From the NCBI GenBank assembly GCA_020137815.1, contig CM035351.1:7998001-8062000 (forward strand): a stretch of 64,000 bases of DNA, in the 5' to 3' direction. A model generated the notes under the pieces. It had not been told where the DNA came from. It did not search any database and worked only from the letters and a program-made list of their open reading frames with translations. Below are positions 1 through 41,649 of the stretch, piece after piece. Both the position numbers and the translations under genes were made by a program. Numbering within the stretch: the stretch's first letter is position 1; the number at the start of each line of letters is the position of its first letter. Source of the stretch: Hormiphora californensis. Lineage: Eukaryota; Animalia; Ctenophora.

Positions 1-117
1 TCTATGTCTCTCTCTCCCCCTCTCCGTCTCCGTCTCTTTCCCTGTCCCCTCTCCAATGGATAGTCTCCATCTATCCCCTTCTCTCTTTATCCCTCTCACC
101 CCATCATTCCCTCCCTC

Positions 118-119
<2 letters not shown>

Positions 120-212
<93 letters not shown>

Positions 213-219
213 CTCTCTC

Positions 220-285
<66 letters not shown>

Positions 286-300
286 CCTCTTTCTCTCTAT
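120..300. repeat. (CT)n microsatellite
   Basis: Near-perfect CT dinucleotide run; it produces the spurious SLSLSL ORF. Confidence 0.97.
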
Positions 301-861
301 CGTCGTCTCTTCATATCGGGCTGGTGAATATAATGGAAGCTGGAATCAGGTGATAAAGATCCGTAGAACTGGAGCTGTGTAGAGTTATTAAAGCTGGGAT
401 ACGAATTAGTAGAAAAGCTGTGGCATTCATCGGGGCCTCAGCAGTAGATGGCCAAACACCACAGGAACACGCAATACAACACCCAACAACATGCACGTGC
501 AGTATTAACACTCTTGCCCACCATCATGGCAATTGGCAACTCCCCAAACCCCCCCCCCCCACCAAACACCCCTAACAACACGTCAATTTTCCACGTGCAA
601 CCCCTAAAACCCCCTCCCCCAAATTTTGTCTTGCAACCATCTCTGCTTTATAATATAGATAATTTTACTGCTGTAAATTTGAATCTTTGAATCTTGAATC
701 TGAATCCGCGTTCCTTTACAATTAATGTAAAGGGAGGGTTAGAACATAACAACTGATTCTAAGTACCGGTTCATGGCGAGCTACATAGTTGTAGGTAATC
801 TACCGATAGCCTCCCGGGAAAATTAGAAAAATATAGAGACTATTGCAATAATCACACGTAC

Positions 862-3800
862 GCTTATGTTGGCGAGTTCCTTGGGAGGGAAGTTACTCTT
901 CCTCTTTTTCTTGGGAAGTAGGGCCTTGTAGTTCTCTTTCTTCTTTGACATGTAATAATAGTGGATACATTGGTCTACCTGCAGTGAGAAAAGGATGGAT
1001 TCAAGAGTTAAATCCTGGGAGAAATAAAAAGAGTTACAGTGGAATTTGTTCATAAAAGATCAAAATTGAACACGTGACCGTACCGTTTTGTTCTGGATGT
1101 GAGCGGCAATCTTGTGGAATACTTTGCCGTGTTGCCCGAATCTATCCCTGAAAGTCCTCTTCTCTGCATCAGTCCATATGTTGTGGGGGACCGTCAGGTG
1201 ACCCTTGTGTTCCCCAGCTGGATCAAAGTTCCTTCCTGAGTGAATAAGGGATCATGATATAAAGCTATCACTTTTTCTCTCTTTAACATGCGCACTGGTT
1301 TGTCTCATAACATACGTCATACCCCCGGCAGACTGAACTCTCCGAACCGGGCCGAAGAGCTTCAAGTACTGGTATTGTCTCTTACCATTCTCGTTGTAGA
1401 ATCTCCGTGCCCTATCCACAGGGTTTATCAGCATATCAGGGACACTGGCAGCACACTCGAACTGCTTATCCTCACTGTCCTGATGCTCAGTTAGCTGCTC
1501 CACAATCTCTGCCAGCTCTGCTTCAGACCTCACCGCGTTACCCCAGGTCCTAGCCCTGCAGGTGTGGTGATCAAAAGGTTTACACACCACCGCGGGGCAG
1601 GGTGTTGAGCTGATAGTTTAGTTTAATAATTTGGTTGCCATGGTTACAAAAAAAGGATACTTTACTATTTACAACACCCCTCCCTGTGTGTTACCATGAT
1701 TACCATGGTTACATAACTCTCATATCTTACCTTTCTACGGGGTTAATACTGCAGGATATCGGCACTAAGGTATCCTTACTTTTACCAGTTCTTCAGGTGA
1801 CATAGGAGGATAGTTTCAGTATTGTTCTAACCCTCCTTTACCGATATTTGTAAAAGAGGGGCGCGGTCATGCGGTGAGAGAGGGTCGAGTAAGGCAACAT
1901 ATTACCTAACCTCTAAACACCCCCGGCCCTCTCGATATAACAGCAATTACATAGCACCCACCCATTCCCCCAAACTATCCAACTCTATTACCTGTTGAAT
2001 CTCTCCTCCTGTTCTAATTTCCGTTTGATGGTCGGGAAGACAGTTTCAAAATACTTTCTACAGGCAGCCAGATCCTTCTGTCTCTTAGGATTCTCCTCCA
2101 GGATCCGCAGCTTCTCCTGCCACTGTAGGAACTTGTTGTGGTACTCCTCTGCCAGCTCTCGCTCCTGTAATAGAACTGTTACTAGGGAGTTGTGAACTGT
2201 TGCTAGGGAGATGAGGATCGAATAGTGAATTGCTGTATAACTAATGTGAAGTTGAGTTGAGGGTGAACATGAAGATGAAGTTTTTCGTTTGTTCAGATGA
2301 CTCTTACAAAACAGGTCAATTAAAAAGAGGGAAAATAAAATCTCTAAACAAAATTGACAATATCTATCGTTTACACAACACTTCTTGTTCTTCTGAGTAT
2401 GCTACAATAGTCTTTTGAATTGTCTCTATTCCCTCTGTGGTTGTCATGTGTTGCACACCATGGTTACCATGGTTACCGAGCAGAATCTTTGGAACACTGC
2501 CAGATATCTGATAATTCCCACCACCACTGATCTTCATTACATTGCCGACATCAAGTTTCACAGCTCCCCCTCCTCCCCCTTTCTTCTTCTTCTTTCTCTT
2601 CTGCTTCACCCCTATCACCACCCTATTAGGTGATGTACTGATGGGTCTCACCACACACGTCTTCTTTCCCACCTCAGGGGTGCCCCTGAAGTTGCTAATC
2701 TCAAACTCCTGACCATTCTCTGGTATATTGTGGAGAGCATGATCAGGTCGGCTGATGGTTAACTTCTCACTAGGCTTGATGTCAAGAGTTATCGCTCTAC
2801 GCTGTTGCCTGGCAACCGACCTCTTGGAGGATCCTTTTGTTTTCTGTGACCCAACAGTTGTTGTTTTATGAGGACCTCTACCTGGGCTCTTCCTGAGCAC
2901 TAGACCCTTATCTAACTTGATATCCACATCCACCAGGGAGGGGGTGTGTTCAGGTGGGACACTCTTTAGCAGAGCACTGAAATGAGGAAACCGCACCTTG
3001 GGGCCGCACCTTGGTTGCTGGATAGGACTCTGAATAACACTGGACACCATGATAGGTGGTGTGGGGTCTACAGAATGTTGGTGATCAGATCTGATGGAAA
3101 CTGGTTCAGGAGAGGTCCTATTTAGGGTGGTAGCTGTTTGTCGGACCAACTTGATGCACTCTTTAGTGATCCTAAACACCTTCCCCCGGTACCTGATTTT
3201 ACAATACCCCATCTTCCGTTTGTGGGGTTTAATGTTCCGACCAGGAAGGTTAACTATCTTCTGACCAATGGTAACACAGTATATGTTATCTTTGTACTCA
3301 GGGGCAGAGAAACTACCCGTCGTAGTGAGAGAGAGGTCCCGGGCCCTGATTCCCGACTCTACATAGGGAGATAGTTCTGATATCTTGACGGTTTGTTTCT
3401 TGTTCTTGTGGTGTAATATCACTGCGTCTTCCTGAGATCTAGAGGCAGAGAATGAACCAATTGGGATCTTTACTTGTCGTCCCTGCAACTTAGTAACATA
3501 CTTCTCAGGCACACCGTTGTTACCCAGTGGCAGAGTAATCTCCTTGAACATAGGGTAAACATCATCAGGAGAGACGAGAGTTGTTCTTCCGTTCCGTTTG
3601 AAGGAGTAGCTGGTGACTTGTTGAGCGGAGGGAGTAAGACTCTCCGCAGGTATAACCTTCCATACCCCCTCTACACTCACAGCCACCATGCTCTTCAAGC
3701 TGGAGAACTCACTAACCCTCTCTGGTACCTCCGTGATGGCACTGGACCTGACACTCACCCACTCTCCGTTAATCTCCACTCTAAACCCGGTAGGGACGGG

Positions 3801-6800
3801 GTGGATTAGGGATCCAGGGACCCGGTATACCTTCTTCTGGAACTGTACAGAGTACTCCTTGTTATCAGCTAAATACACGGCGTCATCAGCGGGGGAGCTG
3901 GCACCAGGGACCTTTATCACCATCTCTGTTCTCTTTAAACTCTTATCGATCATCATCATGAACACCTCCCCTGGCCCCTTCTCCACTAGATCAGATTTCC
4001 GGGCAGTATACCAGGTTCCCTCCACTAACACCCTGTAGAAGTCAGGTACAACAGGGGTTGGAGCTGTGCTGGCGGGGCTACCCAACACCCCCGGACTGTG
4101 CAGGGATGAGTTGAGGGATGTAATGTCATCTATCTGTTGGAGGGTGTTTGTGGATGAAGCTGTCCGGGCCCTGAGTCTAGTGTGTCGGGCCAGACTGAAG
4201 GAGTTGCACAGACCAGTATCAGTCTCCTCTAGAGGATCTCTAATGTTATCCATGGCGTTCAGTAGATCACATATCCCGGGTAGGTTGTCATAACTGCCCG
4301 CTCTACACGGTGTCTCACTCCTCTGGGACCGGTCTATCTGCTCCATTCGGGTCAGGGCGTCTAACAGCTAACATATCCAGACCAGGGAGGGTGGAGAGAC
4401 GGGCTATCTTCTCATAGTCCACCCTCTCTTCCGAGGGTGTGGACTGATCATCCCTCTCCATAACCATGGTAACAGGCCATCCTGCTCTCATTCTCTATCT
4501 CCATCTGGACTCTAGGTGTTCAGGTCATGCCTATACTGCCCAACTGAACCAACTGGTTGTCTACCACTATCTCCTGTGGTGTTGTGGGACGTGGTGGGGG
4601 TGGGTCCTTGGGGTGTCATCCAGGTAGGCCTTCTGATGGATGTTCTCAATAGATAGAGCCCTGCTCATGAAGACATTCAAACCGGGGAGAAGGGGCAGGG
4701 GTTTATCTTCTAAACTCTCTGAATGTGCTCTTAGAGTCCACTATCGTTACTCTCCTTCCCCTTCTCGTATCTGATCCTAGCCCCTGTGTAGTCAGTGAAC
4801 ACCTGTCTAGGGTGGATTGCAGCAGGAATGATCATGGGGAGAAACGAGGCCGGGGAGATAAATTTGGGTTTCCTGGGACCTGTATCATATCTCAAGTTAA
4901 CCTCTACCGTCTGTTCAACATGTGTCTCTATCAATTCTTGTTTGGGAGAGAAGCGGACTGAGGGGGTACGGGACCGAGATCGCCTTGGTGGGGAGGGAGC
5001 CTTTTCTTTCGAGCTACCACGAACACCAACTGGGTTTCCATTCAAACTTGGAATAGAGCCAACTGGAGCTTTGGAAAGTCTTCTTGGGTCCCCTATGATA
5101 TGGCTGGAATTACTAGGTGGTAAAGTGGTGCGAACTTTTGGAGATCTTCCCCGGAGAATTGATTGTGGCTGATTACCATGGTTACCAGGAGAGTTACTCC
5201 GGACTCCAGGAGAATTATCCCGGACTCCAGGAGAGTTACCCCGAACTCCAGGAGAATTACCCCGGACTCCAGGAGAATTACCCCGGACTCCAGGAGAGTT
5301 ACCCCGGACTCCAGGAGAGTTACCCCGGACTCCAGGAGAATTACCCCGGACTCCAGGAGAGTTACCCCGAACTCCAGGAGAATTACCCCGGACTCCAGGA
5401 GAATTACCCCGGACTCCAGGAGAATTACCCCGGACTCCAGGAGAGTTACCCCGGACTCCAGGAGAGTTACCCCGGACTCCAGGAGAGTTACCCCGGACTC
5501 CAGGAGAATTACCCCGGACTCCAGGAGAGTTACCCCGAACTCCAGGAGAATTACCCCGGACTCCAGGAGAATCACCCCGGACTCCAGGAGAGTTACCATG
5601 GACTCCGGGAGAATTACCCCGGACTCCAGGAGAGTTGCCATGAATACCAGGATAATTACTCCGGACTCCAGGAGAATTATCCCGGACTTCAGCAGGAGAT
5701 TTCTCGCGAATGGGACTCTCACGACATGACAAAACCTCAAAACCAGGTTGAGGTAGTTCTGATGCTTCCAGAGCTTGAATCATTAGCTCAGTGGTAAAGG
5801 AAGGAATAGGGCGGGAGATGACAGGATCAAAAGCAGGTTTGGGCTGGAATAGGACCGGATCAATAGCGGGTTTGGGTTGGATTGGATCAGATCTAATTCT
5901 CTCTTGTTTAATCTCCAGGACCCTCGGGTTATTAGTCCCTGTATCAGTGGATGATTCATCTGAGTAGTCGTCTTGAGGAGACGAGAAGTGTTCATTATTT
6001 GAGAAGGGGACCTGTTGAAATACAGGGGCAGGGAAGACCTGCTGACTGCCTCGCTGCTGAATCAACACAGGGTTCTCAACAACACCTGTCTGACCTCCAA
6101 CATTGACAAGAAACCTCCCTGGGGTGTCTGTCTTGTGAAGGGAACTACCAGGTAGGGTGATTTGTCGACCTTGAAACATGACACTGTACTGTCCAGCAGC
6201 TACCAGGCCACTTGATCCTGCTCCGACATTACTACTGACCTTACTACCAGAGCGGCCCACTCCACCAGCGATACCTCCAAAAGCGCCTCCTCCACTTCCA
6301 ATGACGCCTCCTCCACCTCCAAAAGCGCCTCCTCCACCAGTGCCTACACCACCACCCCCTCCTACTCCACCACTACGCCCCATCTCTTCCTCAATATCAC
6401 TTACCTCCACCATCCTCCCTCCGACACTAATTCTAAAGGCGCTGTCTGCCCTCCTTATCTCGGTGCCCTGTACCGTGTACACTAGCCCCTCTGCTCTCAC
6501 CCTGTAAGTATTCTCATCCTCCACAGTCAGCCCAGAGGTGGTGCAACTACTGGTGCAATCCTCCTCATCAGTTGATATCAAGAGGGAGAAATCAGAGAGG
6601 GACTCAGGCTCCTGCTCAGTTGGGGGACCTGTTTCCAGGGCAACCTCTGTACAGGATGTGACGGGGAAATGTACACCAGACATGGCGCAGGTGATGGTGC
6701 CATCTCTCTGATATGTCAGGTATTCTTTGGGTACAATAACGGGTTGGTTGTTGATAATCACCCGGCAGAAGGACCCCAGGACAGAGGTTGTGGAGATGAC

Positions 6801-9800
6801 CGAGGCACACCGGGGTTCGTCCATAGCACACAAACTCTCGATCAAATATAATGTCTAACTACGGGAAAAACAAAGGGACGCTGCAGCTGCAGGTGGTTTA
6901 TGGGAAAAGTACAAGCCAACTATCTCTGTGTCTACCACTAGACAGGAAATGGGCGCGAATATTATCACACAGAGAATACACACCCTCATATCTGATATAT
7001 ATATTAACTGGAGGGATCTTTCATAGCGGGAAGATACGATCAGAGGGTAACTAATTGGGGTGCTGCAAAACAGTGGATTTCTGTAAGAAAAGTTCGACTT
7101 TTGTGGAAGACTGGGGTTGTTCATTGGCTGTTTATTGTCTGGCCTGCTGGTCAACTTGAGGAGTACTGTGGTTAGCTTGCAGTCTCCTCCGTCAAGAATA
7201 GATAAACCAGTGGGAGATGGATAGATACAGAGAGAGGCCAGAGGGGGGAGATACAGAGAGATAGAGGCCAGAGGGGGGAGAGATAAACCAGAGATACACG
7301 TGACTATACATCAGCCAACCAGAGAATATTCTAGTGCTGACACTTTGAAGAAGAGGCTGTTCATATCAGGTACAATGGCAACTTTGAAATACAGGGAGGG
7401 AAAGAAACGTGCAGTAGTTTGTGGGCTGGAACTTTTATAGTCGCTTCAGAAGTTTGAATAATAGCGAGTGAGTTGTAACATTTTATTACAGTGATGTTTT
7501 CAAAAAGAGAAACACAGTCATCTCAAAGTGGGAAATTTAAATCAGTTTTGGTGTATAAAATGTACAAGTAGACATCCCTCTGCTAAATAATAACATGATA
7601 AATTAACAATCCTCGATACATTTCTCATCGTTCATCAACTCTTATCACAATCAATTTGTCCGCCCGAGTCCTTTCTGGACCAAATAACCAGTGCCTCCGA
7701 TACTCAATTATCAACTGTATAGACTGCATCACACAGTTTTCAGTACAGTTCCCCTCAGTTCATACTTGATGCAATGCCTGATCTCTCTAGTCTATTGAAC
7801 AGTGACGACTTCTTGACCGTGCTACTAGCATTGTTACTACTCTTGAAGGTTGTCCTGGACGTTCCACCGGATCTCACTCCAGCGGAGGAAGACGATCTGA
7901 AACCAGCACCAAACCCTGATGCTGATGATGCTGCTGTAAAGGCTGATGAGGAGGGAGGGGGAGGGAAGGGGCCGGTGGTGTTGGCACGTGCACGGGGGCT
8001 GCCAGCAGGTCGCGGGCTACTGAACCCACCAACCCTGGGACTACTAAATCCAGTGGTACTTCGGGAAGTATTGGACCTAGAAGTTGTTGCGGCAGTTGTT
8101 CGAGTGGCTGTAGTATTGATTCTAGTGGCTGCTGCTACGCTGTTGAAACCACCACTGGCACTGCTGGGACCCGGTTGAGAACTAAATCCACTACTACTGG
8201 GGCCTGGTTGAGAGTTGAACCCACTATTGCTAGGTCCTGGTTGAGAGGTGTAGTCTCTGTAACTATTATCAGACACACTGACATCCATGTGAGGGCCCAC
8301 CCCTCCCGTCAGATCACTGATCATCTTGTAATATTTAGGGCTCCTGTTCTTCCTGATTATCACCCATACAGGACACGCAGCACCGAACCCTGTCTCCGCT
8401 AACTGCAGGTAATCATCCTCAAATATGATCTGGGAATGTTCAAAGTGAACTCTGATGCAGCTGGTAAACTTGCGGATATCCACATCATTGATGTTGCGAG
8501 TTGAGGAGTTCCGTATTATAAACACTGGCTCCTCCCCAGAGTTCCGTGCCATGGTCTTGATGGAATCCAGACAGTTTCGGGGTAGTTTCTCTACAAACCA
8601 TGTCCTGATCAACCTCCTCCCATTAGCCAGGGTACACTCCAGGTTCACAACCTCCTCATTCTTACCCAGGGGTCTGATATCCGTCTCTAGGACAAGGTGA
8701 ACTGAGTCCCGGTGTTTTACTACTGCATACCCAGCCTGGGTTTTAGAGGGACGCACCGCTTTAGGACCAGTCCGGACCCAGGATCCCTGGATTAGAACTA
8801 GATACCCCTGTTCTCCCTCGCCACTATCTGAATCACTATCACCCTCCCCTAATGTAGCATCAGGTCCGAATGTGACTGTTTTGGTGGGCTGCTGGACAGG
8901 GAGGATGGTGGTGCCAACTGGTACTAAATACCTACAATCCCCCACTTTAACTGTGTACTGTCCAGGATGCTGCTTCCGGACCTTGAAGTGTCGCCCATAC
9001 ACGGTCACAGTTTCAGAGTTAACGGTCAGGGTGTACTGTCTCTCTGTGTGGACCAGGGTGCCGTTAATAGCCACTGGGATGGCAGTGGAGGGTTGTGGTG
9101 CGGGTTGAGGTGGAGGTGAGGGTTCCCTGAGAGGAGGAGTAGGTGGTTTCTCCCACAGTGGTACCTTGGGAGGGGACGGCATCCTATCTGGTAGTTTGTA
9201 ACCCCCATTAGGTAGCACTACAAAGGGCGACTCACCTGGCCGGTCTGGTAGTATCACACTGGGCTCCCTGCTACCTAGCAACCCTGCAAACTCTGGTTTC
9301 AGCCTGCCCCACTGATCGTACAAGGCACTAAGAGGCACCATCTTGCTCCCCTCATCAGACCCCTGACTGCTGCTCACAGACAACTCACCGAGAGTGTGAG
9401 GTAAGGTGTTTGTATCAGGAGAGGCTGACTGTTGCCTCATGTGTTGTTCCGGTGAGATGGGGTGAGGGTGGACGGGGGAGGGGCAGGTAGGGTGGGAACT
9501 CTCCCCAGCAGGAGCACTAGTAGTGGGATACTTACTACCCTCTGGTAGGATCACAGGGACAACATTGACAGCCTTGACGTAGTACTTGCTACTGTTATAC
9601 ACCACTACAAACCTTCCTGGTCTCTGTTTACTGGGTCTCACATTGTTAGCTGGTATTACCCTCCACTTAGCATTGATATAGATTCTGTAGAATCCGGTAC
9701 TGGTTATAGGGGTGATCTCGTCATCACATTCAGGGGTAACTGGTCGGATGAAATAGGATTTGTAGGTCTCATTATCGAGAGTCACCTTAACATATTTCCG

Positions 9801-12800
9801 GGTTGATTTAGTCCTGATTAACCGACCTGATACTATCTTAGTAGTGTTGTTTTCCAGGAGGACCGAGTACAAGGCATCAGGTTCTATCTTGATATTCTTG
9901 AAGATCTTCCTGTCCTCCTCAGAGGAGAGAGAGGAGCTGCTGGAGGTATTCATCTCGGGGGAGGATGTCAGGATCTTAACACTCTTCTCAACCCTCCTCT
10001 CTGAGTGGGTGGTAGTGGTTGTACCGGTTCTGGATGGACTCCGCAAGATTCCAGTGGGTGATTTAGTATGTGGACCAGGTGATACAGGCTGGGTAGGTGG
10101 TAAGGGCTGGGTAGGTGGTGGTGGTGGGACCGGTATGGGGGAGGGTTGTTTCTGGTCCTTGGTGGGACAGTTGGGACACTGGAAGGGCAGGATACTACAG
10201 GGTGCCCCACACTGACACTTGGACCCATCCTTCTCCTCCTCCCCATTGTCTAATATCGCACTGTCCTCAGACTCTCCATTCAGTATCATCCTGCAGTCAA
10301 TGATCTCATGATAAGTCCCTTTGAACCACACCATTCCACTGCTCCTGTTAGGGTGACGCTGTATCTTGCTGCCCTTCACTATCAAACACCCCACATTAGG
10401 GCCCAGATCCACGTAGTATGTCAGATTAGGCTTTATAACAATGTTCCTGATACTAAGGTTCACTGGGGTATACCGCTCAGGTTGATACAGGTATATCTCA
10501 CTGACGATACCTGCCCTGTCCTTATCTAGACTGACAATCAGGGCTTTGTCATTTCCTGGAATCGGCCTGATCTGGTTTCCCCGAACTATCTCCCACTTCT
10601 CGTTAATCTTGACCTGGTACATCCGGTCCTCGTGAACATAAACACCGTAGTACTTGAAGGGGTATGTGGCTGTACTTGGAACTGCTTCCTGTTGTTGGGG
10701 TGACTGTTGCCTTGGTGATGGTTGCCTAGGTGATGTTTGTTTTGGTTGCCTAGGTGATGGCTGTTTCTGTTGAGGTTGTTGTTGTTGTGGTTTGTTCCAT
10801 GTTGAGTGGGTGTTATTGTATGTTGTCTGGGAGGTACTGGTCTGCTGGTTGTAATAGTTGACAGCCGTGTTGTTACCATAGTAACCAGGAGAGGACCTGC
10901 CCCCAGGAGGAGGGTGTCGGGATGGAGATGGGGACCCCCCTCCCTTAGCACCCCGTGATGGTGATCTTCTGGAGGGTGTTACTGATGGAGAGAAGGCCTT
11001 GTGGTATGGGTTGTAGCTGGTGGTCCGTGGTGATATGGGTCTGATGGGCTGATCAGGTGTCACTGCCACTATCTGCTCCACTCTAATGGGAGTGTTTGGG
11101 TTCTGGTAGTAGATCACTGCACTACCGTCAGGGGTTGGAGCTAGCTGGGAGCCCAACACTGTCAACCACTGAGCGTTAATGTAGATCTTATAGTACCCGT
11201 AGGTGTAGATGGGTAGACCACGGTACAGGAATGAGTAGGTGGGCTGGGTGGCTGTAGGGGCTACTGGGGCCGGGGTGGAGTCATAACTATAGATCTCAGT
11301 CACCAGGACGAAGTTGTTAGGTCCCTGGTTGAGATAGAGGCTGTTTGGGTCAGCACCAGGGCTCAATTGGGAACCAAATACGAACCACGTACCGGTTATT
11401 AACGAATATCTTAGTACCTTCTCTCTCTGTCAATGTAGAGACCCCGATAGTAGAAGGGGTAGGAGGTTGTAGAGACGTTATTCACCGGGAACACTTCATA
11501 GATCCGGTAGGGGGTTCCATAGTTTGAGTCATTGAGGATCATATATTGGGGGTCTCCTGACACATGCAGGGTAGATCCCAGGACAGTGACCCACTGGTTG
11601 TTCAAACAGGTTTTGTATTGGAGATGAGGGTAAATCAGCTGATTCTTGAACTGTAATGGGTAGTTACCCTTGTGCTGATCAAGTATCACATTCACCTTGA
11701 CTCGGTCACCTAGCAACGGACTGGAACACTTCTGACAGAATTCATCGTACCTCTGGTAGGTACCATCATGGGAGCATAATGTATGCAGATCCTATCTCAG
11801 AACGGTAGCTAGCCCTCACGGATCCGTCACTGTTGAACACACGAACCCCGGGTATGCAGGTGAACTCTCCGTCACCTAGCAACGGAGCAGAGGGAGGTCG
11901 GGAGGAGGAGAGGGAGCTGTTGTTTGACTGAACACGCACTCTCACAGATCCTTCCGGGGACAGGTGTTGGGACATCAAACAAGGTAACACTCAGAGTTTT
12001 AGAGAGAGAGGGGAGTCAGGGGAGACTTTGAGCTGTCGTCTGTTTATCTCTCTCTCTTTTATGGGTGTGTCAGAGAGAAAACGTTGAGTTCCACCGACTA
12101 TTAGCGATGGAATTAGGGACACAAAAAGAGCTATTGGTGCTCCAAGTATGACAAGGAAAACTGAGGCATCAAAGAAGAAAGCTTCTATCTTATTCTCTCT
12201 CTCTCTCTCTCGCTGGGGGATTTGATCCACTTGTTACAATATGCGGTGGAGACTTTTCCATTGGGATGTAGAGAGATGTAGAGAGATAAAAAGCAGAGAG
12301 AGAGAGAGAAACAGACAAACCAAGATACAAACCTACAAAGCACACACAGATCAAACGTGTCAAAGAATGAAAAAGCCAAAACCAAAGACATGTATAAGAT
12401 ACATGTATGTATTGGCATGGTGTATGAATTAACTGTGTATGTTGAAATGTGGGATGCTATACATGAAGTATGAAGACTGACCTTGCTTTCACTTTCTTGT
12501 TTCTTTTTCCACAGGTAATCAACTAGAGCCTTCTTAAATGATCCCTCTTTCCACCTGCACAGAGTAATGTACTATTAGGGGTAATGTACTATTAGGGGTA
12601 GTGTTAATCAGTGTGTCTAGTGACAGAGTGTTGTATTCGGTGTCAAAATCAAACAACAAACAACTCACCGTTTCACCGTTTCATTATACTGCGGTAGGTC
12701 AGATGGCTGCTTGTACAGGGGCTGAAAATAGGGCACAAAACAAATAGTTAACACAGCTTGTTGATAAACACCCCCGTCCCCACCAGACATCATTCTAAAA

Positions 12801-13884
12801 TACAGCCACCCGATGCACCCCACCGCCCTTCCCCTCCCAGACTTAAACACCCCCGTCCCCTGTCCCACCAGACTAACAGACGATTATAAGCTGCACACTC
12901 ACCAGACCAGGAAGGCGGGGTTCAAGGAGAGGACATCCCAGGTGCAGCATTGACATGTTGGTATGCTCTGCTCTAGCCTGCAAATAGATGGGATGTGTTA
13001 ATAACATTGTTAGTGTGCTCAGCTCGAGCCTGCAAATGTATATGGGATATACTGGGGTCAATATGTTTTCAAGACTCGGAATAAATGTTACGCAACAAAA
13101 CCCAGCTGGCAGCTACACGACTACACTAGCAAACATTTGTTACCTTGTTCTCGCTATAAATCCGCTGGATCAGTTTAACATTTTCTGTTATTTCTGTTTT
13201 CCTTGGGTTTACAGGAACCATCTCGACATTCAGAACTCCCACCTTCTCTTTCTTCTGAAGGGGGAGGGTGTGGTGGGGTTAAAAGGTGGGTCAAGAAAGC
13301 AGCAGAAGAATAGAATTTGAATTTAAAAGAGGAAATCTTTCTAACGATAGATAACTTACTGATATCTCAGTGTTAACTTTCTTGATAACTCTCTCCGTAT
13401 CAACAATGTCTTTATCCACCTTCTCCATTAGTGCTAGTATACTCTCCATTGTAGGTTGCTGTTGCTCCTGTTGCTGTTCCTGTTGTTTCTCTTCTTCCAC
13501 TGGTTCTGGCTCTAACTCTCCCTCCTCTTCCTCTTCAACCCCCTCTTCATTTTCCTCAGCCACTATCTCCCCAGGTTCAGACTTGGGAGAGGGGGTGTGG
13601 GGTCCCACAACTGCTGCCGGGGTATGTCCATTGGGGACAAACTCCCCAAACACAGGACCATTTGTCAACATACTCGCTACAGAGGGAGAGAGGTAATGTT
13701 AAGTTATGGCAAGGAGGGGGATTGGCATGGCAGCTAGGGTAGGGGGCTGGGGGAGCTGCTGGACACCAGATGTTCGGGGTGTTTGTGTGATGCCAGTGTG
13801 TCGGGAAAGGGAGCGCGCGGGAAAGGTATCAGAACTTGTACCGCGCGTTACAGCTATGTCGCTGGATTCTGTGTGCCACTCCAT
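862..13884 (-). CDS. NCOR: Nuclear receptor corepressor (NCoR/SMRT)-like protein, multi-exon; N-terminal GPS2/TBL1-binding region plus SANT1/DAD; 3' end not resolved (may continue towards or beyond position 1)
   Basis: Approximate GT-AG exons, phase-consistent where checked: ~13359-13677 (MESILALMEKVDKDIVDTERVIKK), 13144-13254 (KLIQRIYSENK), ~12900-12979, 12669-12723 (PLYKQPSDLPQYNETVKR), 12482-12554 (KKALVDYLWKKK), 1992-2164 (LAEEYHNKFLQWQEKLRILEENPKRQKDLAACRKYFETVFPTIKRKLEQEERFNR), ~1385-1610 (VRSEAELAEIVEQLTEHQ..VPDML..RRFYNENG), 1084-1235 (IWTDAEKRTFRDRFGQHGKVFHKIAAHIQNKT), 862-978 (VDQCIHYYYMSKKKENYKALL). These follow, in order, the remembered NCoR1 motifs DRVDREI, IIYDENRKK, PLYNQPSD, YYEKQFPEIRKQREQQERF, ARSEHEI, WTDHEK, CVLYYYLTKKNENYKAL. 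The start ATG at 13884 is tentative. Confidence 0.9.
2364..4346 (-). CDS. Uncharacterised intronless protein (660 aa) with ~5 copies of a beta-rich repeat domain and a basic C-terminus; nested in the NCoR intron; probably the 3' half of a gene that includes 4731-6845
   Basis: Long ORF. Repeats such as FYRVLVEGTWYTARKSDL, EYSVQFQKKVYRVPGSLIHP, IYCVTIGQKIVNLPGRNIKP. KQKRKKKK is NLS-like. Confidence 0.75.
   Translation of the reverse strand: MEQIDRSQRSETPCRAGSYDNLPGICDLLNAMDNIRDPLEETDTGLCNSFSLARHTRLRARTASSTNTLQQIDDITSLNSSLHSPGVLGSPASTAPTPVVPDFYRVLVEGTWYTARKSDLVEKGPGEVFMMMIDKSLKRTEMVIKVPGASSPADDAVYLADNKEYSVQFQKKVYRVPGSLIHPVPTGFRVEINGEWVSVRSSAITEVPERVSEFSSLKSMVAVSVEGVWKVIPAESLTPSAQQVTSYSFKRNGRTTLVSPDDVYPMFKEITLPLGNNGVPEKYVTKLQGRQVKIPIGSFSASRSQEDAVILHHKNKKQTVKISELSPYVESGIRARDLSLTTTGSFSAPEYKDNIYCVTIGQKIVNLPGRNIKPHKRKMGYCKIRYRGKVFRITKECIKLVRQTATTLNRTSPEPVSIRSDHQHSVDPTPPIMVSSVIQSPIQQPRCGPKVRFPHFSALLKSVPPEHTPSLVDVDIKLDKGLVLRKSPGRGPHKTTTVGSQKTKGSSKRSVARQQRRAITLDIKPSEKLTISRPDHALHNIPENGQEFEISNFRGTPEVGKKTCVVRPISTSPNRVVIGVKQKRKKKKKGGGGGAVKLDVGNVMKISGGGNYQISGSVPKILLGNHGNHGVQHMTTTEGIETIQKTIVAYSEEQEVLCKR
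4731..6854 (-). CDS. Uncharacterised intronless protein (~705 aa) with 3 beta-rich repeat domains, a Gly-rich tract and ~24x GVRGNSP heptads; nested in the NCoR intron
   Basis: Long ORF preceded by a pyrimidine tract and acceptor (ctttgtttttcccgtagttag| ending at 6855). First ATG at 6824. Domains: FCRVIINNQPVIVP, TYRVRAEGLVYTVQG, QYSVMFQGRQITLPGSSL. Confidence 0.75.
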   Translation of the reverse strand, partial: TLYLIESLCAMDEPRCASVISTTSVLGSFCRVIINNQPVIVPKEYLTYQRDGTITCAMSGVHFPVTSCTEVALETGPPTEQEPESLSDFSLLISTDEEDCTSSCTTSGLTVEDENTYRVRAEGLVYTVQGTEIRRADSAFRISVGGRMVEVSDIEEEMGRSGGVGGGGGVGTGGGGAFGGGGGVIGSGGGAFGGIAGGVGRSGSKVSSNVGAGSSGLVAAGQYSVMFQGRQITLPGSSLHKTDTPGRFLVNVGGQTGVVENPVLIQQRGSQQVFPAPVFQQVPFSNNEHFSSPQDDYSDESSTDTGTNNPRVLEIKQERIRSDPIQPKPAIDPVLFQPKPAFDPVISRPIPSFTTELMIQALEASELPQPGFEVLSCRESPIREKSPAEVRDNSPGVRSNYPGIHGNSPGVRGNSPGVHGNSPGVRGDSPGVRGNSPGVRGNSPGVRGNSPGVRGNSPGVRGNSPGVRGNSPGVRGNSPGVRGNSPGVRGNSPGVRGNSPGVRGNSPGVRGNSPGVRGNSPGVRGNSPGVRGNSPGVRGNSPGVRDNSPGVRSNSPGNHGNQPQSILRGRSPKVRTTLPPSNSSHIIGDPRRLSKAPVGSIPSLNGNPVGVRGSSKEKAPSPPRRSRSRTPSVRFSPKQELIETHVEQTVEVNLRYDTGPRKPKFISPASFLPMIIPAAIHPRQVFTDYTGARIRYEKGKESNDSGL
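5185..5690. repeat. 21-bp coding minisatellite, ~24 copies (ccaggagaRttaccccggact-like; encodes GVRGNSP on minus)
   Basis: Directly visible tandem units; variation is mostly synonymous in the minus-strand frame (AAT/AAC, GTC/GTT). Confidence 0.97.
7755..11975 (-). CDS. Uncharacterised intronless protein (~1400 aa reconstructed) with >=9 beta-rich repeat domains separated by Pro/Ser/Gln-rich linkers; nested in the NCoR intron
   Basis: 1203-aa ORF 7755-11366 plus upstream ORFs 11411-11716 and 11766-11990. Removing single-base insertions at ~11770, ~11413 and ~11385 joins them (GSAYIMLHDGTYQRYDEF; RERRYKIFVNNRYVVVFGSQLSPG). The latter two repairs restore a complete repeat domain. ATG at 11975. 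Confidence 0.8.
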
Positions 13885-14002
13885 CGGTCTCTCTGTCCCA
13901 AACACCGAAAATAAGAATATGTACACGAAACATGGTGATAAGTATAACTTAAAAAGTGTAGTCAAAAACAACTAAAACCCAACAAATAACTTGATAAACA
14001 AT

Positions 14003-15099
14003 TTAACTTCCACGAACAGGTACGGTCTTCATCTCCTCTAAATATTCTCTTTTAGCAGTGTCCTCAATATGTCCAGTCACACTCTCTAGGACAGTCTTCT
14101 TGTTCCATGCCACTGTTACCTTCCTTTTCTTGGGGTTCCTGTGAACCGTCTCAACGTGTCTCTCAAAGGCCTGCTTATAGAAGAATCCAGCAGAGCAATC
14201 CTCACAGTTAAACCTCTTGACTCCGTGATGTACACTTTGTATGTGTTTTACCAGGTTGGGCTTGTGTTTGAACACTTTAGTACACTCAGAACACTCGTAC
14301 TCAACAATGTTAATGACGTTGTGGGCTCGTCTCAAGTGACAGGAGAGTGTTGATTTAGATCGGAATACCTTCCTGCATGTGGGACAGGGATATCTACATT
14401 CCTCCAACTCAAATATCTCCCCACCCTCCACTAACTCATCCACATCACTGGTGGGAAGACTGGGAGCCTGTTCCTCTACACTAACTACCTCCCTCTTCTT
14501 CTCCACCTGCTCACTCCCATTCTCCGCCCCGTGGACCCTTCTCCTGTGTAACTCCAGGTTGGTAACGGTTGAGAACCTTATTGAGCACTCCTCACACCAC
14601 CCTGAATCACGTCTCTGCTTCTTGTGTGTCTGGGCAATGTGTTTTTGAAGGACACTAAACTTGTCGAACTGCTCCCCACAGTCAGTACACATGTACAGGG
14701 AGAAGTGGACCCTCTTTTGGTGTCTGGTCAGGTGTGATTGGGTGGTGAAACTCTGATCACACATTTCACACCTATATGGGGCTGTCTCACCGTGTACCTC
14801 TAGAAGGTGTTTGTACAGGTGTGTCTTCTTAGTGAACCCAACCACATCACACTGTCCACACGGGTACAACTTCTTACCCTCGTGGGTTCGCTCATGTTTC
14901 CTCAGATTACTCAAGGACTTGAAGGAAGAGTTGCACGTTGCACAAACATGGGGTCTGCACTCGGAGTGGGTGTCTGCGTGCCGTTTTAGGTAGCTCTGTC
15001 GGGCAAAGGTCTTGTCACAACCTGGCTCTGGGCAGATATACGGTCTTTCACCTGGGGATGTACACATCAATGTAGTGAGGAAGTTATAGATAGATAGAT

Positions 15100-15159
<60 letters not shown>

Positions 15160-15269
15160 CGCGGCTGCTAGAGATCGCGCTCGCCTCTCTCTCTGACTCG
15201 ATAGCGCTCGCTTCTCTCGCTCGCTCGCTCTCTCTTTCCGGCTCTCTCTCTCCTCGTCTCTCTCTCTCC

Positions 15270-15330
<61 letters not shown>

Positions 15331-15499
15331 CTCTCTCTCTCTCTCCTCTTATTCAGTTTGCTAGAATGTTTTGGAAAACCTGGGGCAATAATTTCTATTC
15401 TAACTTCTTACCGGTGTGTGTAGTGATGTGATCCTCAAGACGGGCTTGTCGGGAGAAGACCCTTCCACATCCCTCAAAGACACACTCGAAAGTGGACAT
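14003..15499 (-). CDS. GTF3A: Transcription factor IIIA-like C2H2 zinc-finger protein (10 fingers), 2 exons: 15412-15499 and 14003-15051
   Basis: Finger 1 FECVFEGCGRVFSRQARLEDHITTHTG and finger 2 CPEPGCDKTFARQSYLKRH have the CxxxxC spacing of TFIIIA. The C-terminal KQAFERH..PKKRK..KKTVLESVTGHI resembles the TFIIIA tail KQSLTRH..PDKKK..KRSLASHLSGYI. Phase-1 GT-AG intron. Confidence 0.75.
15085..15350. repeat. (GATA)/(GA)n followed by noisy (CT)n in the TFIIIA intron
   Basis: Low-complexity tracts in inverted arrangement with a garbled centre; possibly partly an assembly artefact. Confidence 0.8.
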
Positions 15500-15938
15500 C
15501 ACCACCTCACCTGCCTAACAACCATCCCTAGTGGGAGGTGGAGTGGTTAGCTGATAGGACGAAATGAAACTAGCTATTTTTGAAAGGCTGAGGGAAACAA
15601 GATGGTGTAATAAAATATAACTGTATTTAATAAAGGAAAAACTGATAACTATGATACTCCACAAAATTTAGGAGTGATGGTTCAATCTAAAAAAAAATGT
15701 TTGATGGGTCTAGAGATTTGAAACAGCAAGGTACATGTTTTATCATTCCATGTTCAAGAGAACTAGTACTGTTCGATGGTCAAGGATTAAAAGTGGCAGA
15801 ACTCCACGGTTGGCAGTTGACCCTGAACCGTCACTTCAAAATTCAATGGAGTATAGGAATATAAGTATTAACTACAATGTGCATGCATACACATTAAGCA
15901 CTTAAATAAAAAATACTGCTGTTTTACTGCTCATTTAA

Positions 15939-16432
15939 AGTGAGAGTGGACAGAATCAGTTACCAGAAAGGACACGTTTTTTGTATATCTTAGAGATTAG
16001 TTCTCTGACCATTTTGCCTTTTTGCCGCTCAAAATCATCCATCATTTACTGAGATATTTTTGTTAATTATGGGCAATTCCTGTTGGGTCACTATTTATCA
16101 AGCAGGATAGAAACAATCCTTGTGTTTCACTAACAAATTCTTTGAATTTTTAATATGCTGACTTGCTTTGCTCTGCTTCTGTAGGGCTTCTGTGCATGGA
16201 CTTGTCAACCTCACTGCTAATTATGTTCAGAATGTGTAAGTGAAACACAAGGATTGCTTCTATCCTGTTTGATAAATATTGATCTAACAGGAATTCTCCG
16301 AGAGTAAAAAAATTATCTCAGTGATGGATGGGTCGATTTTGAGCGGGAAAAAGGCAAAATGCTCAGGAACTAATATCTAACACCTGTCACCTACAAAGAA
16401 CTTGTCTAATTCTGATTCTGTCCACTCTCACT
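15939..16432. mobile_element. Non-autonomous TTAA-target DNA transposon (Kolobok-like), 494 bp, with diverged ~200-bp inverted arms
   Basis: TTAA|AGTGAGAGTGGACAGAATCAG ... CTGATTCTGTCCACTCTCACT|TTAA. Internal arms are still alignable (ggatagaaacaatccttgtgtttcact / agtgaaacacaaggattgcttctatcc). Absent from the duplicated segment at ~19900. Confidence 0.85.
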
Positions 16433-16575
16433 TTAATAGCCGACACCAGTCAGTAGTCACTATATAGATAAAATAGGAGGCAAGCATTGAAGCACCTTCT
16501 AACTCTGAACGAAATGAACACTCCTTTAGAGAATTTATGTGATATGATATAAGTGGAGAGGTGAGCAGTGAAGGT

Positions 16576-18811
16576 TTACTCTTTGGCCTTACTCTTAACA
16601 TTTTGACACTTCCCAGAGTAATGTTTAATGTGTGCCTTAAGGTTACCAGATGTAAGAAAGCGTTTTCCACAATCCTCACATTCAAACGGTCGCTCTCCCG
16701 TGTGGGTCCTCATGTGAACTTCGATATATTGAGAGGTGGAAAATGTTTTTCCACATTCCTCACATTTGTACGGCTTCTCTCCCGTGTGTTTTCTCATGTG
16801 AACTTTGAGGTAGGAAGACAGGGCAAACTTTTTTCCACATTCCTTACACTGATGTGGTCGCTCTCCACTGTGAATCTTCATGTGAGAACGGAGGTGGCTA
16901 GTTTGGGCAAACGTTTTTCCACACTCCTTACATTCGTATGGCCTTGACCCCGTATGGATTCTTCTGTGTGTGCTAAGATCATTGCTTCTCGAAAAGCTCT
17001 TTCCACATACCTCACATTTATACGGTCGTTCACCAGTGTGAGTCCTCATATGTATTTTAAGAGGATCTGGTCTTGAAAATTCTTTATCACAGAGTTCGCA
17101 TTTATATGGTCGTTCTCCCGTGTGTGTTCTAATATGAATGTTAAGGGCGCCAGATTGAGAAAATCGTTTTCCACATTCCTCACATTTGTACGGCTGCTCT
17201 CCCGTGTGCGACCTCATGTGAGTTTTGAGATGTCCATATTGGGCAAACTTTTTTTCACACTGCTTACATTCGTGAGGTCTTTCACCCGTATGGACCATCT
17301 TGTGGCTGGTAAGGGCACTAACTGAGCTAAAAGTTTTCCCACATTCCTCACATTTGTACGGTCGCTCTCCCGTGTGGGTCCTCATGTGTATTTTGAGACT
17401 GCCAGTTGTAGAGTATCTTTTTTCGCATAAATCACATTTGTACGGCTGCTCTCCCGTGTGGGTCCGCATGTGTATTTTGAGACTTCCAGATTGGGTAAAG
17501 GTTTTACCACAATCCTCACATTTGTACGGTCGTTCACCAGTGTGAGTTCTCAAGTGTGATTTCAAACCGCCACCCTCGGTAAAACATTTTCCACATTCCT
17601 CACATTTGAACGGGTGCTCTCCCGTGTGGGTTCTCAAGTGTAATTTAAGACCGCTAGATTGGGTAAAAGTTTTACCACATTCCTTACATTTGTACGGTCG
17701 TTCACCAGTGTGAGTTCTCAAGTGTTTTTTCAAATTTCCACCTTCGGTAAAACATTTTCCACATTCCTCACATTTGAACGGCTGCTCTCCCGTGTGGGTT
17801 CTCATGTGTGTTTTAAGATTTCCAGATTTAGTAAAAATTTTCCCACACTCCTTACATTCAAACGACCGTTTCCGGTCTCTCAGGTGGGCTCGCATATGTT
17901 TTACAAAGTTTCCAGATGTACCAAATGTTTTTCCACACTCTTTACACTCCATCGCCAATTTTTCCTCATTTTCAGGAGTTTCTGTGCGACGCCTCTTGTT
18001 ACTTGGCAACACATTCTCTTCCTCACTTGAGTCGCTCAGGAGCTCATCTTCTGTGTCCGACAAACTTCCTTCTGATAACTCACCTGAAAATAGAAAAATT
18101 ACAAAGCTTGGGAAGAAAAAGAAGATCTTAGTACATACCTAGTTCTACATTTTTAGTTTTTTTTCATTAACATCAATATGTACGAAGTTATAAATAATTA
18201 TCAACTTACTAGTGTCACTTTCAGAGTCGTTTTTCAAGTCATTGTCAGACAAACTGTCTTCCTGCACTGAACCACTTTCTGATAACTCTCCTAAAAAGGA
18301 TTAGTTTAGTATCAAGAATAATTGGTTTGAACAAACTTGATAATATCCAAAATAGTCGCAGCAATAACGAGTTAGAAAGAATGATCAGTGAAAATAGTTC
18401 ACCTTGTTCTCCTAAGGTTAGCGAATGATTATCTGGTTGCAAAGAGGCTTCAGCTGGTTCCACAGTTTCAGGATCAGATCTTTCTTCGAAATCAGTTGTT
18501 TCAGGATCCACACTGGGGTCAACAGTGTTCTTCGTACAATCAGTCGTATCTTCAGTTTGGACTCCAACGCTTTTCAGTGATCTAACAGGTAGCTGTGGTA
18601 TAACTTCACGATGTCCACACCTGCTACACCCAAAATAAGTCTCCGGAGAGTCAACTGCTTCAGTCTTCACCCGTGGTAGTTCAACATGGACTTGCTCGGT
18701 TTTTAGGAAAGGTCTTGGTACAAACTTGTCCTCATTTCCAGTAACCTCTTCTGCAGTTTTGTTTTTACTCCTTGTTTTGTAGAATACGTGCCGGTTGCTT
18801 TCTTCCCACCA
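16576..18811 (-). CDS. Tandem C2H2 zinc-finger protein, copy 1 (16 fingers, TGE(R/K/Q)P(Y/F) linkers, acidic N-terminus); exons ~18403-18811, ~18209-18290, 16576-18083; +1 indel at ~18783
   Basis: 16 CxxC-x12-HxxxH units counted in the ORF. Upstream exons splice in phase (GELSESGSVQEDSLSDNDLKNDSESDT|[14 protein letters not shown]). Compared with copy 2, the first exon has an extra A (agaatacg vs agatacg). Confidence 0.88.
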
Positions 18812-19069
18812 TCTTGCTACATAGGGATAATGTATTGGTATATTGGTATGACATAATTGTTATAACAATGCTTAGTTTTTAAAACCCATTCATATTTTCA
18901 AATATCAGTTCTGCATAAATTTTAGTGTTTTGTCAAACTATAATTTTGTTAAATAATGATAACACAATACATACATCATTAACAATTAATCATAAAACAC
19001 ACTGAAAAAATGAATGAAGCAAATATTAATAGTTAAACAACTGACCAAATACACCAAATATTTACAAAG

Positions 19070-19627
19070 TTACCATATCATACTAAACCAGCTTGACTTT
19101 TCATTCAAGCCAAGATTGTCTGAAATACTGAAGAAATAATCAAACAAAACAAAATACGGTGCCCAAAAGAGTCCCGGGCGAAGTCTCCATCTGAATCTCA
19201 CTACTCCTTTAGAGGAGAAGATGTTCAGTGGAGTTTGTCGAGAGAGTACTCCCCCCTGGTAAAGAGAGCAGGGTTGACACTGGGGAAACAATCGTTGGAT
19301 GGTACACCCAGTGTGTAGGGATGTAGGTGGCATGTGATCTGAGATGTACTGGACTGTGTAGGTGCCACAGTGAAGGTACCAATCATCTGAACTGGTTTTA
19401 GGTAGATCAGTCAGGCAAAGATCTTGGCACAGCCTGGCCCTTTCACCTGGGAGAGGGAAACGTGTTAGAAAGATAGAGAGATGAATTGCTACGGTTTGAG
19501 AAACTGGGACAATGATTTCAATTCTAAGGATCTTCCTACCGGTGTGTGTAGTGATGTGATCCTCAAGACGGGCTTGTCGGGAGAAGACCCTTCCACATCC
19601 CTCAAAGACACACTCGAAAGTGGACAT
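19070..19627 (-). pseudogene. Chimeric duplication-junction gene: TFIIIA exon 1 + intron + degenerate start of exon 2, fused to the 3' third of the HNH-like gene
   Basis: 19540-19660 is nearly identical to 15412-15535. 19386-19450 is a deleted, diverged copy of 14973-15056. 19070-19381 is nearly identical to 25539-25850. Confidence 0.85.
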
Positions 19628-20576
19628 CACCACCACACCTGCCTAACAACCATCCCTAGAGTGAGGCAGAGTGATTAGTTGATAGGACGAAACGGTGCTA
19701 GTTAGATCAAACAAGCCGAGAAAAACAGGAGAGTTGAAAAATATATAACTGTATTTAATAAAAGTAAACATTTATATCAATACTCCGCAATAGTAAGAAG
19801 TGGCGGTTCTTATTTCAAAAAGTGGTTTGTTTGACAGGTCTAGAGATTTGAAAAAGCAAGTTACATGTTTTATCATTCCACTTTAATGGGAACTAGGACT
19901 GTTCACTTTTGAATGATAATGGATCGAACGTGGCGATCTGAACCGCCCTTAATGCAGGACCGTTTCTTTTCTTTCAAACCGTCCGATTCTTGTAAAACTA
20001 TAGAGAAACAATATTTATATATTATGGGTCGACCTAAATCCTAATAAATGTTTTTTTTTCACAAATCTCACATTCGTACAACTGCTTTGCCTGGCTAGAC
20101 TGTGATTCGGGCGCCCCCCTTCCTTAACAAATGTAAAGAGAGGGTTAGAACATAACAACTGCTATCCCGTGTGGGTCCTCTGAATGTGAATTTTGAGATG
20201 GCTCGATTGGGTAAACTTTTTTCCACACTCTTTGCATTCGTATGGCTTTTCCCCCGTATGGATTCTTCGGTGTGTTCTAAGATCATAAATTGATATAAAC
20301 AACTTTTCACAATCCTCACATTTATACGGTCGTTCACCAGTGTGAGTTCTCATATGAATTTTAAGACGACCTGGTTTCATATAACCTTTTTCACAGAGCT
20401 GGCATTTATATGGTCGCTCTCCCGTATGTATTTTAGTATGAGTAGTAAGGGCGCTAGATGAAATAAATCGCTTTTCACATTCCTCACATTTGTACGGTCG
20501 CTCTCCCGTGTGGGTCCTCATGTGAGTTTTGAGATGTCCATATTGGGTAAAGTTTTTCCCGCATTCCTTACATTCA

Positions 20577-22433
<1,857 letters not shown>

Positions 22434-23333: not shown

Positions 23334-23368
23334 TAATTTAGGTCCCTTTTTGGTTTCTAATGTCAGTA

Positions 23369-41643: not shown

Positions 41644-41649
<6 letters not shown>

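What the first reader, a model, noticed from the sequence alone, without database searches (positions are those of the whole stretch)
2165..12481. Large intronless genes nested on the same strand inside one intron of NCoR
Seen: NCoR exons 12482-12554 (..KQESESK) and 1992-2164 (ERELAEEY..) join in phase 0 and continue the conserved GPS2-binding helix, so 2165-12481 is one 10.3-kb intron in a gene whose other introns are under ~0.3 kb. About 8.5 kb of it is coding, on the same strand as the host. Established: nested genes are more often antisense to the host. Inference: this is a cassette of related genes that is transcribed whenever NCoR is and must be skipped or separately processed. I see no transposase, RT, TIR or LTR that would make it a mobile element.
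Basis: partly seen in the sequence, partly recalled or inferred. Interest (0 to 1): 0.8.

Follow-up and report, generated by a model that had tools for sequence, protein, structure and literature searches.

The report
Unannotated genes inside comb-jelly NCoR intron
A 10.3-kb intron of a comb jelly's NCoR co-repressor gene holds large single-exon genes (likely two) on the same strand, encoding an unannotated, likely ctenophore-specific protein family with predicted SH3/Tudor-like barrels; they are likely transcribed on their own, and this kind of nesting is already known in comb jellies and flies.

Summary
Nine exons splice into a stop-free 412-aa NCoR, 256 of 348 aligned residues identical to Mnemiopsis NCoR, with no gap at the GT..AG phase-0 junction 12482^2164. 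About 8.3-8.7 kb of the intron is same-strand coding. Gene A (11975-7755) is one gene with three 1-nt insertions. It has an intact Pleurobrachia bachei ortholog (about 91% identical) and uninterrupted orthologs in five other sequence groups; one shares a contig length (600,937) with a Mnemiopsis-cluster NCoR fragment, suggesting old linkage. ORFs B and C are probably one frameshifted gene. All share a ~43-aa module with no Pfam match, predicted as an SH3/Tudor-like barrel (Z about 5). No mobile or viral signature was found. Same-strand, intronless nested genes are a documented class (Hormiphora, Drosophila). Best reading: independently initiated, tissue-restricted genes that NCoR splices across; the rival is an operon cut from NCoR pre-mRNA by spliced-leader trans-splicing. 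Expression was not testable. The arrangement is known; the family appears undescribed. The scan's earlier notes held nothing similar.

The parts
13360..13671 (-). NCoR coding exon 1 (ATG at 13671; acceptor-like cttcc/ctgtag 6 nt upstream)
13144..13254 (-). NCoR exon 2
12903..12977 (-). NCoR exon 3
12669..12721 (-). NCoR exon 4
12482..12554 (-). NCoR exon 5, ends in phase 0 (..KKQESESK)
2165..12481 (-). Host intron, 10,317 nt, GT..AG
   Evidence: no alignment gap at the junction against P0001
11976..12481 (-). Non-coding stretch upstream of gene A, with CT/GA tracts and a pyrimidine-rich acceptor (first exon base 12160) followed by no ATG before 11975; candidate promoter/outron
   Evidence: and the sequence; function inferred
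7755..11975 (-). Nested gene A, single exon, about 1,405 aa: nine predicted small beta-barrel modules with S/P/Q-rich linkers, a C-terminal alpha/beta domain (about 8650-8310) and a low-complexity tail
   Evidence: orthologs P0003-P0005, P0011, P0021-P0026; models
11382..11769 (-). Three 1-nt insertions in gene A relative to the P. bachei protein, at 11769/8, 11414/3 and 11384-2; assembly artefact or recent damage
   Evidence: two-allele pattern only suggestive, P about 0.09
6825..7754 (-). Non-coding gap A-B (930 nt) with AATAAA at 7487 and 7136 and tandem acceptors (first exon bases 6858 and 6854) just before the B ATG
4731..6824 (-). ORF B, 697 aa: three modules, a Gly tract and 24 copies of a 21-nt repeat (7-aa PGVRGNS-type, 5185-5692); probably the 5' part of one B-C gene
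4347..4730 (-). B-C gap, 384 nt, 54% GC, coding-like with stepping frames; no poly(A) hexamer or pyrimidine-rich acceptor found
   Evidence: score 47.8; 0 of 200 shuffles reach it
2364..4346 (-). ORF C, 660 aa from the first in-frame ATG: five modules and a basic tail; probably the 3' part of the B-C gene
2165..2363 (-). 199 nt between the C stop and the NCoR acceptor; none of six poly(A) hexamers tested; a donor-like gtaagag at 2307
1992..2164 (-). NCoR exon 6 (ERELAEEY..)
1386..1555 (-). NCoR exon 7
1084..1235 (-). NCoR exon 8 (SANT1, first part)
862..978 (-). NCoR exon 9 (SANT1, second part); the rest of the gene was not found in the window

Best explanation
One intron of a ctenophore NCoR gene holds large same-strand single-exon genes (A, and likely one B-C gene) of an unannotated family with repeated predicted SH3/Tudor-like barrels; they are likely made as their own tissue-restricted transcripts from intronic start sites while NCoR pre-mRNA is spliced straight across them. 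Shown: host exon structure, the intron, single-ORF orthologs of A, and the module shared by A, B and C. Inferred: own promoters in the 506-nt and 930-nt non-coding stretches; 5' ends finished by spliced-leader trans-splicing at the orphan acceptors (12160 for A, 6858 for B); A polyadenylated near 7487; lack of introns being what lets the host spliceosome ignore them. The proteins would be multivalent scaffolds with barrels on disordered S/P- and RG-rich linkers. A germline or sperm role is a guess by analogy with Drosophila same-strand nested genes. The frameshifts are more likely consensus errors than real gene loss.
For: Stop-free spliced NCoR colinear with Mnemiopsis across the junction. 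A is conserved with the same domain order at 34-49% identity in five non-Pleurobrachia groups and about 91% in P. bachei. The ENA calls are unspliced ORFs (P0019 runs off an NCoR exon into non-NCoR residues), so A is intronless there too. P0024 (A ortholog) and P0019 (in the 90% cluster of Mnemiopsis NCoR) both list a longest contig of 600,937. The P0021/P0024 cluster has 4 of 4 members from ENA and none from NCBI, as expected if annotation hides the gene inside NCoR. The A-B gap is non-coding and has AATAAA and an acceptor before the B ATG. Literature: parallel nested genes and a leader on at least 56% of Iso-Seq reads in Hormiphora (PMC8527503, sections 37-38); Drosophila same-strand nested genes are 72.5% single-exon, 58% testis-peaking, and not co-expressed with hosts (PMC3814207, passages).
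Against: No promoter, cap site, leader-bearing read or poly(A) site was observed. Only 506 nt separate the NCoR donor from the A ATG, which is tight for a promoter plus 5' UTR. C has no canonical poly(A) hexamer in the 199 nt before the NCoR acceptor. Donor-like GTRAGW words are not depleted in the nested ORFs: 8 sense against 1 antisense in A, 9 against 3 in B-C, which does not fit strong avoidance of splice signals. Shared contig length shows linkage within 601 kb at best, not nesting. The two-allele pattern of the insertions is not significant (P about 0.09). No ortholog of B or C was found.
Confidence: 0.58

Rival explanations
1. Operon within an intron: A and B-C have no promoters and are cut out of the NCoR primary transcript by spliced-leader trans-splicing at the orphan acceptors plus cleavage at their poly(A) sites, so each transcript yields either NCoR or the nested mRNAs.
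For: Trans-splicing is common in ctenophores (PMC8527503). Acceptors without an obvious own donor precede both ATGs. Little room for a promoter before A. The upstream zinc-finger gene ends 332 nt before the NCoR ATG on the same strand, with an acceptor 6 nt before that ATG.
Against: About 630 nt separate A's AATAAA from B's acceptor, enough for a promoter. It would cost an essential co-repressor transcripts. Nested genes elsewhere are usually expressed independently of hosts.
Confidence: 0.2
2. B(-C) is an alternative terminal exon: NCoR exon 5 splices to the acceptor at 6854 and gives an in-frame NCoR(1-208)::B fusion lacking the SANT/HDAC3 domains.
For: Of 36 pyrimidine-rich YAG sites in the intron, 6854 is the only one outside an ORF body that opens a long frame (707 codons).
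Against: That AG is the in-frame TAG bounding the ORF, so phase 0 is automatic. A stronger AG 4 nt upstream (6858) is out of frame. No such join is possible for A (stop 5 codons before its ATG). P0001/P0017 show only canonical NCoR.
Confidence: 0.07
3. The genes are real in ctenophores but decaying in this lineage: the insertions are genuine loss-of-function changes.
For: Three frameshifts in A and about five in B-C; the two-allele test gives only P about 0.09.
Against: 3.6-kb, 2.1-kb and 2.0-kb stretches stay open with no stops. The 5' pieces of A are 97-98% identical to P. bachei. All three A lesions are 1-nt insertions next to synonymous wobble sites. The window also holds low-complexity, error-like sequence near 41.5-43 kb.
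Confidence: 0.1
4. The insert is a mobile or viral element, or a mis-join that split NCoR.
For: Large intronless ORFs, higher GC (about 51%) than the flanking introns, and no genome or reads to verify the join.
Against: Canonical splice sites in exactly the right phase and position. No terminal repeats and no enzyme domain. Orthologs sit in several ctenophore-type assemblies, one apparently on an NCoR contig. The P. bachei model's tail matches window 7205-7146.
Confidence: 0.04

Closest known systems
Parallel nested intronic genes of Hormiphora californensis (PMC8527503; sections 37-38 and passages read; supplements not available)
   Same: Ctenophore; genes wholly inside one intron, several per host, many on the host strand; a lineage with spliced-leader trans-splicing.
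   Different: The text read names neither NCoR nor this family; about half of those nested genes are TE-flanked, and no terminal repeat was seen here. Its supplementary list, which I could not see, may include this locus.
Same-strand single-exon nested genes of Drosophila (PMC3814207, passages) and mammalian host/nested pairs (PMC11694760, passages)
   Same: Same strand, intronless, fast-evolving gene in a long intron of a conserved regulatory host.
   Different: Here each gene is about 4.2-4.5 kb of coding sequence (Drosophila median about 0.8 kb), 80-84% of the intron is coding, and the genes are tandem relatives.
Tudor / Royal-family and other SH3-like small beta-barrels; multi-Tudor scaffolds such as TDRD6 and Tudor (the latter two recalled)
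   Same: Predicted ~45-residue barrel aligns to TDRD3 Tudor (Z 5.1, rmsd 2.1, 45 aligned), SAWADEE (Z 5.2, rmsd 2.3, 47), 53BP1, PHF1 and SMN; many copies on disordered linkers.
   Different: Equal scores to non-Tudor SH3-like folds (myosin VI N-terminus, integrase C-terminal domain). No sequence-level Tudor match. The module is pseudo-symmetric with an extra 3-10 turn. Aromatic cage not tested.
CTENO189 comb-plate protein (bioRxiv 10.1101/2022.03.27.486007, passages)
   Same: Large ctenophore-specific protein (1,582 aa).
   Different: It has a metalloprotease and two death domains, which were not seen here.

Membership tests
NCoR/SMRT co-repressors (host) | Deacetylase-activation domain with SANT1 preceded by the conserved coiled region | tested here: met
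   No PDB or Pfam hit locates the helix; the position argues against it by recalled numbering
Nested intronic genes | Wholly inside one intron of a host gene | tested here: met
   from sequence and ortholog colinearity; junction reads not available
Nested intronic genes | Real protein-coding genes (conserved ORF) | tested here: met
   A: orthologs. B-C: shared module and coding score only
Nested intronic genes | Own transcript with separate 5' and 3' ends | not testable with these tools
   No run holding the stretch was listed; only candidate signals
Spliced-leader operons | Polycistronic precursor resolved by leader addition | not testable with these tools
   Orphan acceptors only
Tudor / Royal family domain | SH3-like five-stranded barrel | tested here: met
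   Predicted model, pLDDT about 85-90; Z 4-5.2, rmsd 2-3 over about 45 residues; shared with non-Tudor folds
Tudor / Royal family domain | Sequence homology to Tudor profiles | tested here: inconclusive
   No Tudor row in Pfam scans or the PDB profile search
Tudor / Royal family domain | Aromatic cage binding methyl-Arg/Lys | not tested
   Model coordinates not inspected; by eye the aromatics vary among modules
Transposon or endogenous virus | Terminal repeats bounding the insert | tested here: not met
   (repeats of 16 nt or more, seed 10)
Transposon or endogenous virus | Transposase, RT, integrase or capsid gene | tested here: inconclusive
   No hit in Pfam, PHROGs (one low-complexity match only), viral contigs or BFVD at E <= 0.001

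The most novel reading that the evidence does not exclude
An operon hidden in an intron: two new multi-Tudor-like scaffold genes have stayed in the NCoR intron since the Pleurobrachia and Mnemiopsis lineages split and are released from NCoR pre-mRNA by spliced-leader trans-splicing. Every transcript would then choose between the co-repressor and germline scaffold proteins, a built-in switch that lowers NCoR where the scaffolds are made.
Probability: 0.14. Interest if true: 0.8.

Novelty: new member of a known kind. Interest (0 to 1): 0.42.

Why it matters
The layout is a known class, but this is a clean, dense case in the sister group of other animals and a good test locus for the question the Hormiphora paper leaves open: how parallel nested genes are processed apart from their host. 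It also exposes a conserved ~1,400-1,500-aa protein family with a new repeated barrel module that has no Pfam entry and seems to be missing from a current Mnemiopsis annotation, probably because same-strand nested genes are dropped by gene callers. If the barrels are Tudor-like readers, this would be a ctenophore-specific scaffold family.

Tried and rejected
No genome is held for this window, so genome-wide copy number was not tested. No RNA holder was listed; the one run offered, X1, laid only 4 short off-target pieces and says nothing on expression; no second lay gave a result. Metagenome scans with gene A (303 pattern hits, 0 confirmed) and with the NCoR exon (243, 0), viral contigs (110, 0) and prokaryote genomes (82, 0) gave no locus, so nesting could not be read in another species. 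The homolog search for C residues 90-420 found none of 3,072 candidates, but it covered only 362-1,154 aa and would miss a fused ~1,485-aa B-C ortholog; the same index also missed P0003 and P0005. The ESM Atlas gave no answer. Pfam: no family at cut-off for the nested ORFs or orthologs. PHROGs: 1 of 4 proteins matched, in B's 7-aa repeat, rejected as low complexity. Foldseek: no match at E <= 0.001 in PDB or BFVD; weak THUMP- and IDH-like rows for the C-terminal alpha/beta domain (Z up to 6.1, rmsd 2.9, 75 aligned) are not accepted as an identification. Module profile against PDB sequences: best E 0.37. No Rfam hit in 1-16,000 and no Hormiphora leader copy in the window. With A orthologs alone as training, C scored 9.8 bits and B had no domain of 8 bits. 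The wobble test for B-C is uninformative: 407 of 695 codons offer such a site. Paper searches found no description of this locus or family; one search gave 1 unrelated paper and none. Derelle 2010 (PMC2844618) is not held and was seen only as cited. PMC12221973 passages were irrelevant. Earlier scan notes: 0, 3 unrelated and 0.
Full report
Host and intron. The window is from a ctenophore close to Pleurobrachia. Exon 1994-2164 is 79% identical to Mnemiopsis NCoR P0001, and nested gene A is about 91% identical to a P. bachei protein. Nine minus-strand exons from 13671 to 862 join into 412 aa with no stop: 256 of 348 aligned residues are identical to P0001, with one 1-residue gap near the end. 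All eight introns are GT..AG: 105, 166, 181, 114, 10,317, 436, 150 and 105 nt. The long one falls in phase 0 between P0001 residues 175 and 176, about 94 residues before the NCoR2 deacetylase-activation/SANT1 match. The intron is therefore real as far as sequence can show; junction reads were not available. The 'GPS2 helix' label is probably wrong (recalled numbering; no tool located that helix).

Gene A. The apparent separate ORFs at 11975-11769, 11791-11411 and 11429-7755 are one gene. P0003 maps to them at 97%, 98% and 86-90% identity, and three 1-nt insertions account for the breaks. Each lies where either of two adjacent bases gives the same amino acid, as if both alleles of a synonymous SNP were written in tandem; random insertions do that 44% of the time, so P is about 0.09 for three: suggestive only. 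Orthologs with the same domain order exist as single ORFs: P0004, P0005, the P0021 cluster (4 members), the P0022 cluster (3) and the partial P0011/P0006, at 34-49% identity to A. These calls are unspliced ORFs (P0019 shows exon plus flanking non-NCoR residues), so A is intronless across them. Their organisms are not named, except that P0024 and P0019, the latter in the Mnemiopsis NCoR cluster, both list a longest contig of 600,937. I read that as one contig, so A is probably linked to NCoR in a lobate as well; nesting there is not shown. That cluster has no NCBI member although NCoR does, which fits an unannotated nested gene.

ORFs B and C. A codon-position Markov model trained without B or C scores the 384-nt B-C gap as coding: 47.8 against a shuffle mean of 6.4 and maximum of 31.6, 0 of 200 reaching it. 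The path needs four +1 shifts and one -1 (or two +1) at the B stop. The A-B gap scores -75 under the same model. On A's known 5' breaks the model recovered the first shift and merged the other two, so exact positions are rough. The gap is 54% GC, has no poly(A) hexamer or pyrimidine-rich acceptor, and by eye an LPG-x-x-L motif recurs three times from 4700 into C. B and C are probably one gene of about 1,485 aa (my estimate 65-70%); otherwise C starts near the ATG at 4668. No ortholog was found, but the one search excluded that length.

Relatedness and fold. A ~43-aa module profile built from A, its orthologs and four weaker relatives (P0007-P0010, E 2.6e-6 to 4.5e-4), with B and C held out, scores C at 30.9 and B at 16.0 bits. 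None of 500 local shuffles of either reaches these (maxima 9.3 and 10.3), and among 757 window ORFs of 40 aa or more the top four are A, its 5' piece, C and B, the next being 5.6 bits. With A orthologs only, C was marginal and B undetected, so the kinship is distant. AlphaFold on P0004 gives nine beta modules (pLDDT about 65-80) on disordered linkers and a C-terminal alpha/beta domain; a 256-aa piece of A folds at mean pLDDT 80. The module aligns with SH3-like small barrels: SAWADEE Z 5.2, TDRD3 Tudor Z 5.1 (rmsd 2.1, 45 residues, 24% identity), myosin VI N-terminus Z 4.9, integrase C-terminal domain Z 4.7. These are tied and below the tool's Z 8 caution, so the fold class is plausible but Tudor membership is not established.

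Not a mobile element, as far as tested. No terminal repeats, no enzyme domain, and no confirmed viral or prokaryotic relative. Genome-wide copy number could not be checked.

Mechanism. The sequence offers a 506-nt non-coding lead with an acceptor at 12160 and no upstream ATG for A; AATAAA 268 nt after A's stop; tandem acceptors 34 and 30 nt before B's ATG; and only 199 nt, without a canonical hexamer, between C's stop and the NCoR acceptor. I favour separate, tissue-restricted transcription with leader trans-splicing (0.58). In Drosophila, same-strand nested genes are 28.7% of nested genes, 72.5% single-exon, 58% testis-peaking and not co-expressed with hosts (PMC3814207, passages). In mammals the two orientations are broadly similar in number and nested genes are tissue-specific (PMC11694760, passages). 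In Hormiphora many of 2,357 nested genes are parallel and at least 56% of full-length reads carry the leader (PMC8527503, sections 37-38). Against it, donor-like words are not depleted in the nested ORFs and promoter space before A is tight. Rivals: intronic operon (0.2), real decay in this lineage (0.1), NCoR::B fusion through the 6854 acceptor (0.07), mobile insert or mis-join (0.04).

Verdict. What is new is the protein family and its probable long-standing linkage to NCoR. Eight paper searches found no description; the Hormiphora supplements and most subscription papers could not be seen and may list the locus. Interest 0.42.

Noticed in passing
window 14003-15510 and 13671 (minus): A C2H2 zinc-finger gene with nine Pfam fingers in its large exon (TFIIIA-like by my recall) ends 332 nt before the NCoR ATG on the same strand, and NCoR has an acceptor 6 nt before its ATG: an operon-like spacing.
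   Followed up: partly
window about 14000-26300 (minus): A tandem cluster of C2H2 zinc-finger genes and duplicated upstream blocks, with some copies frameshifted (ORFs 20162-21050 and 22382-22915) and partial repeats of the first exon of the upstream finger gene near 19600.
   Followed up: no
window about 41500-43000: G/C/A/T-run-rich low-complexity sequence that looks like an unpolished noisy read inside the assembly; bears on whether frameshifts in this window are errors.
   Followed up: no
window 12978-13050 (minus): The acceptor and first codons of NCoR exon 3 are duplicated in tandem about 50 nt upstream; the upstream copy is degenerate.
   Followed up: no
window 30363-31388 (minus); 46884-47384 (minus): A single-ORF rhodopsin-family GPCR (E 7.9e-7, just under the Pfam cut-off) and a CAP-domain secreted protein exon.
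   Followed up: partly
window about 56900-60000: Dispersed degenerate TTGGCGCCA-rich repeats giving spurious ORFs on both strands.
   Followed up: no
P0003: The P. bachei model has an internal duplication of about 330 residues and a tail built from what is non-coding A-B gap sequence here (match to 7205-7146): likely a gene-model artefact, but it shows conserved downstream sequence.
   Followed up: partly
P0022 and P0027: A full and a partial copy of the gene-A ortholog share one contig length (114,243), suggesting a local duplication in that assembly.
   Followed up: no
P0007-P0010, P0012-P0016: Smaller unnamed proteins (239-575 aa) with two to four copies of the same module: further family members of unknown organism and location.
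   Followed up: partly
P0002: An NCoR exon ORF from another record starts matching only mid-way through exon 6, suggesting an additional intron position in that lineage.
   Followed up: no
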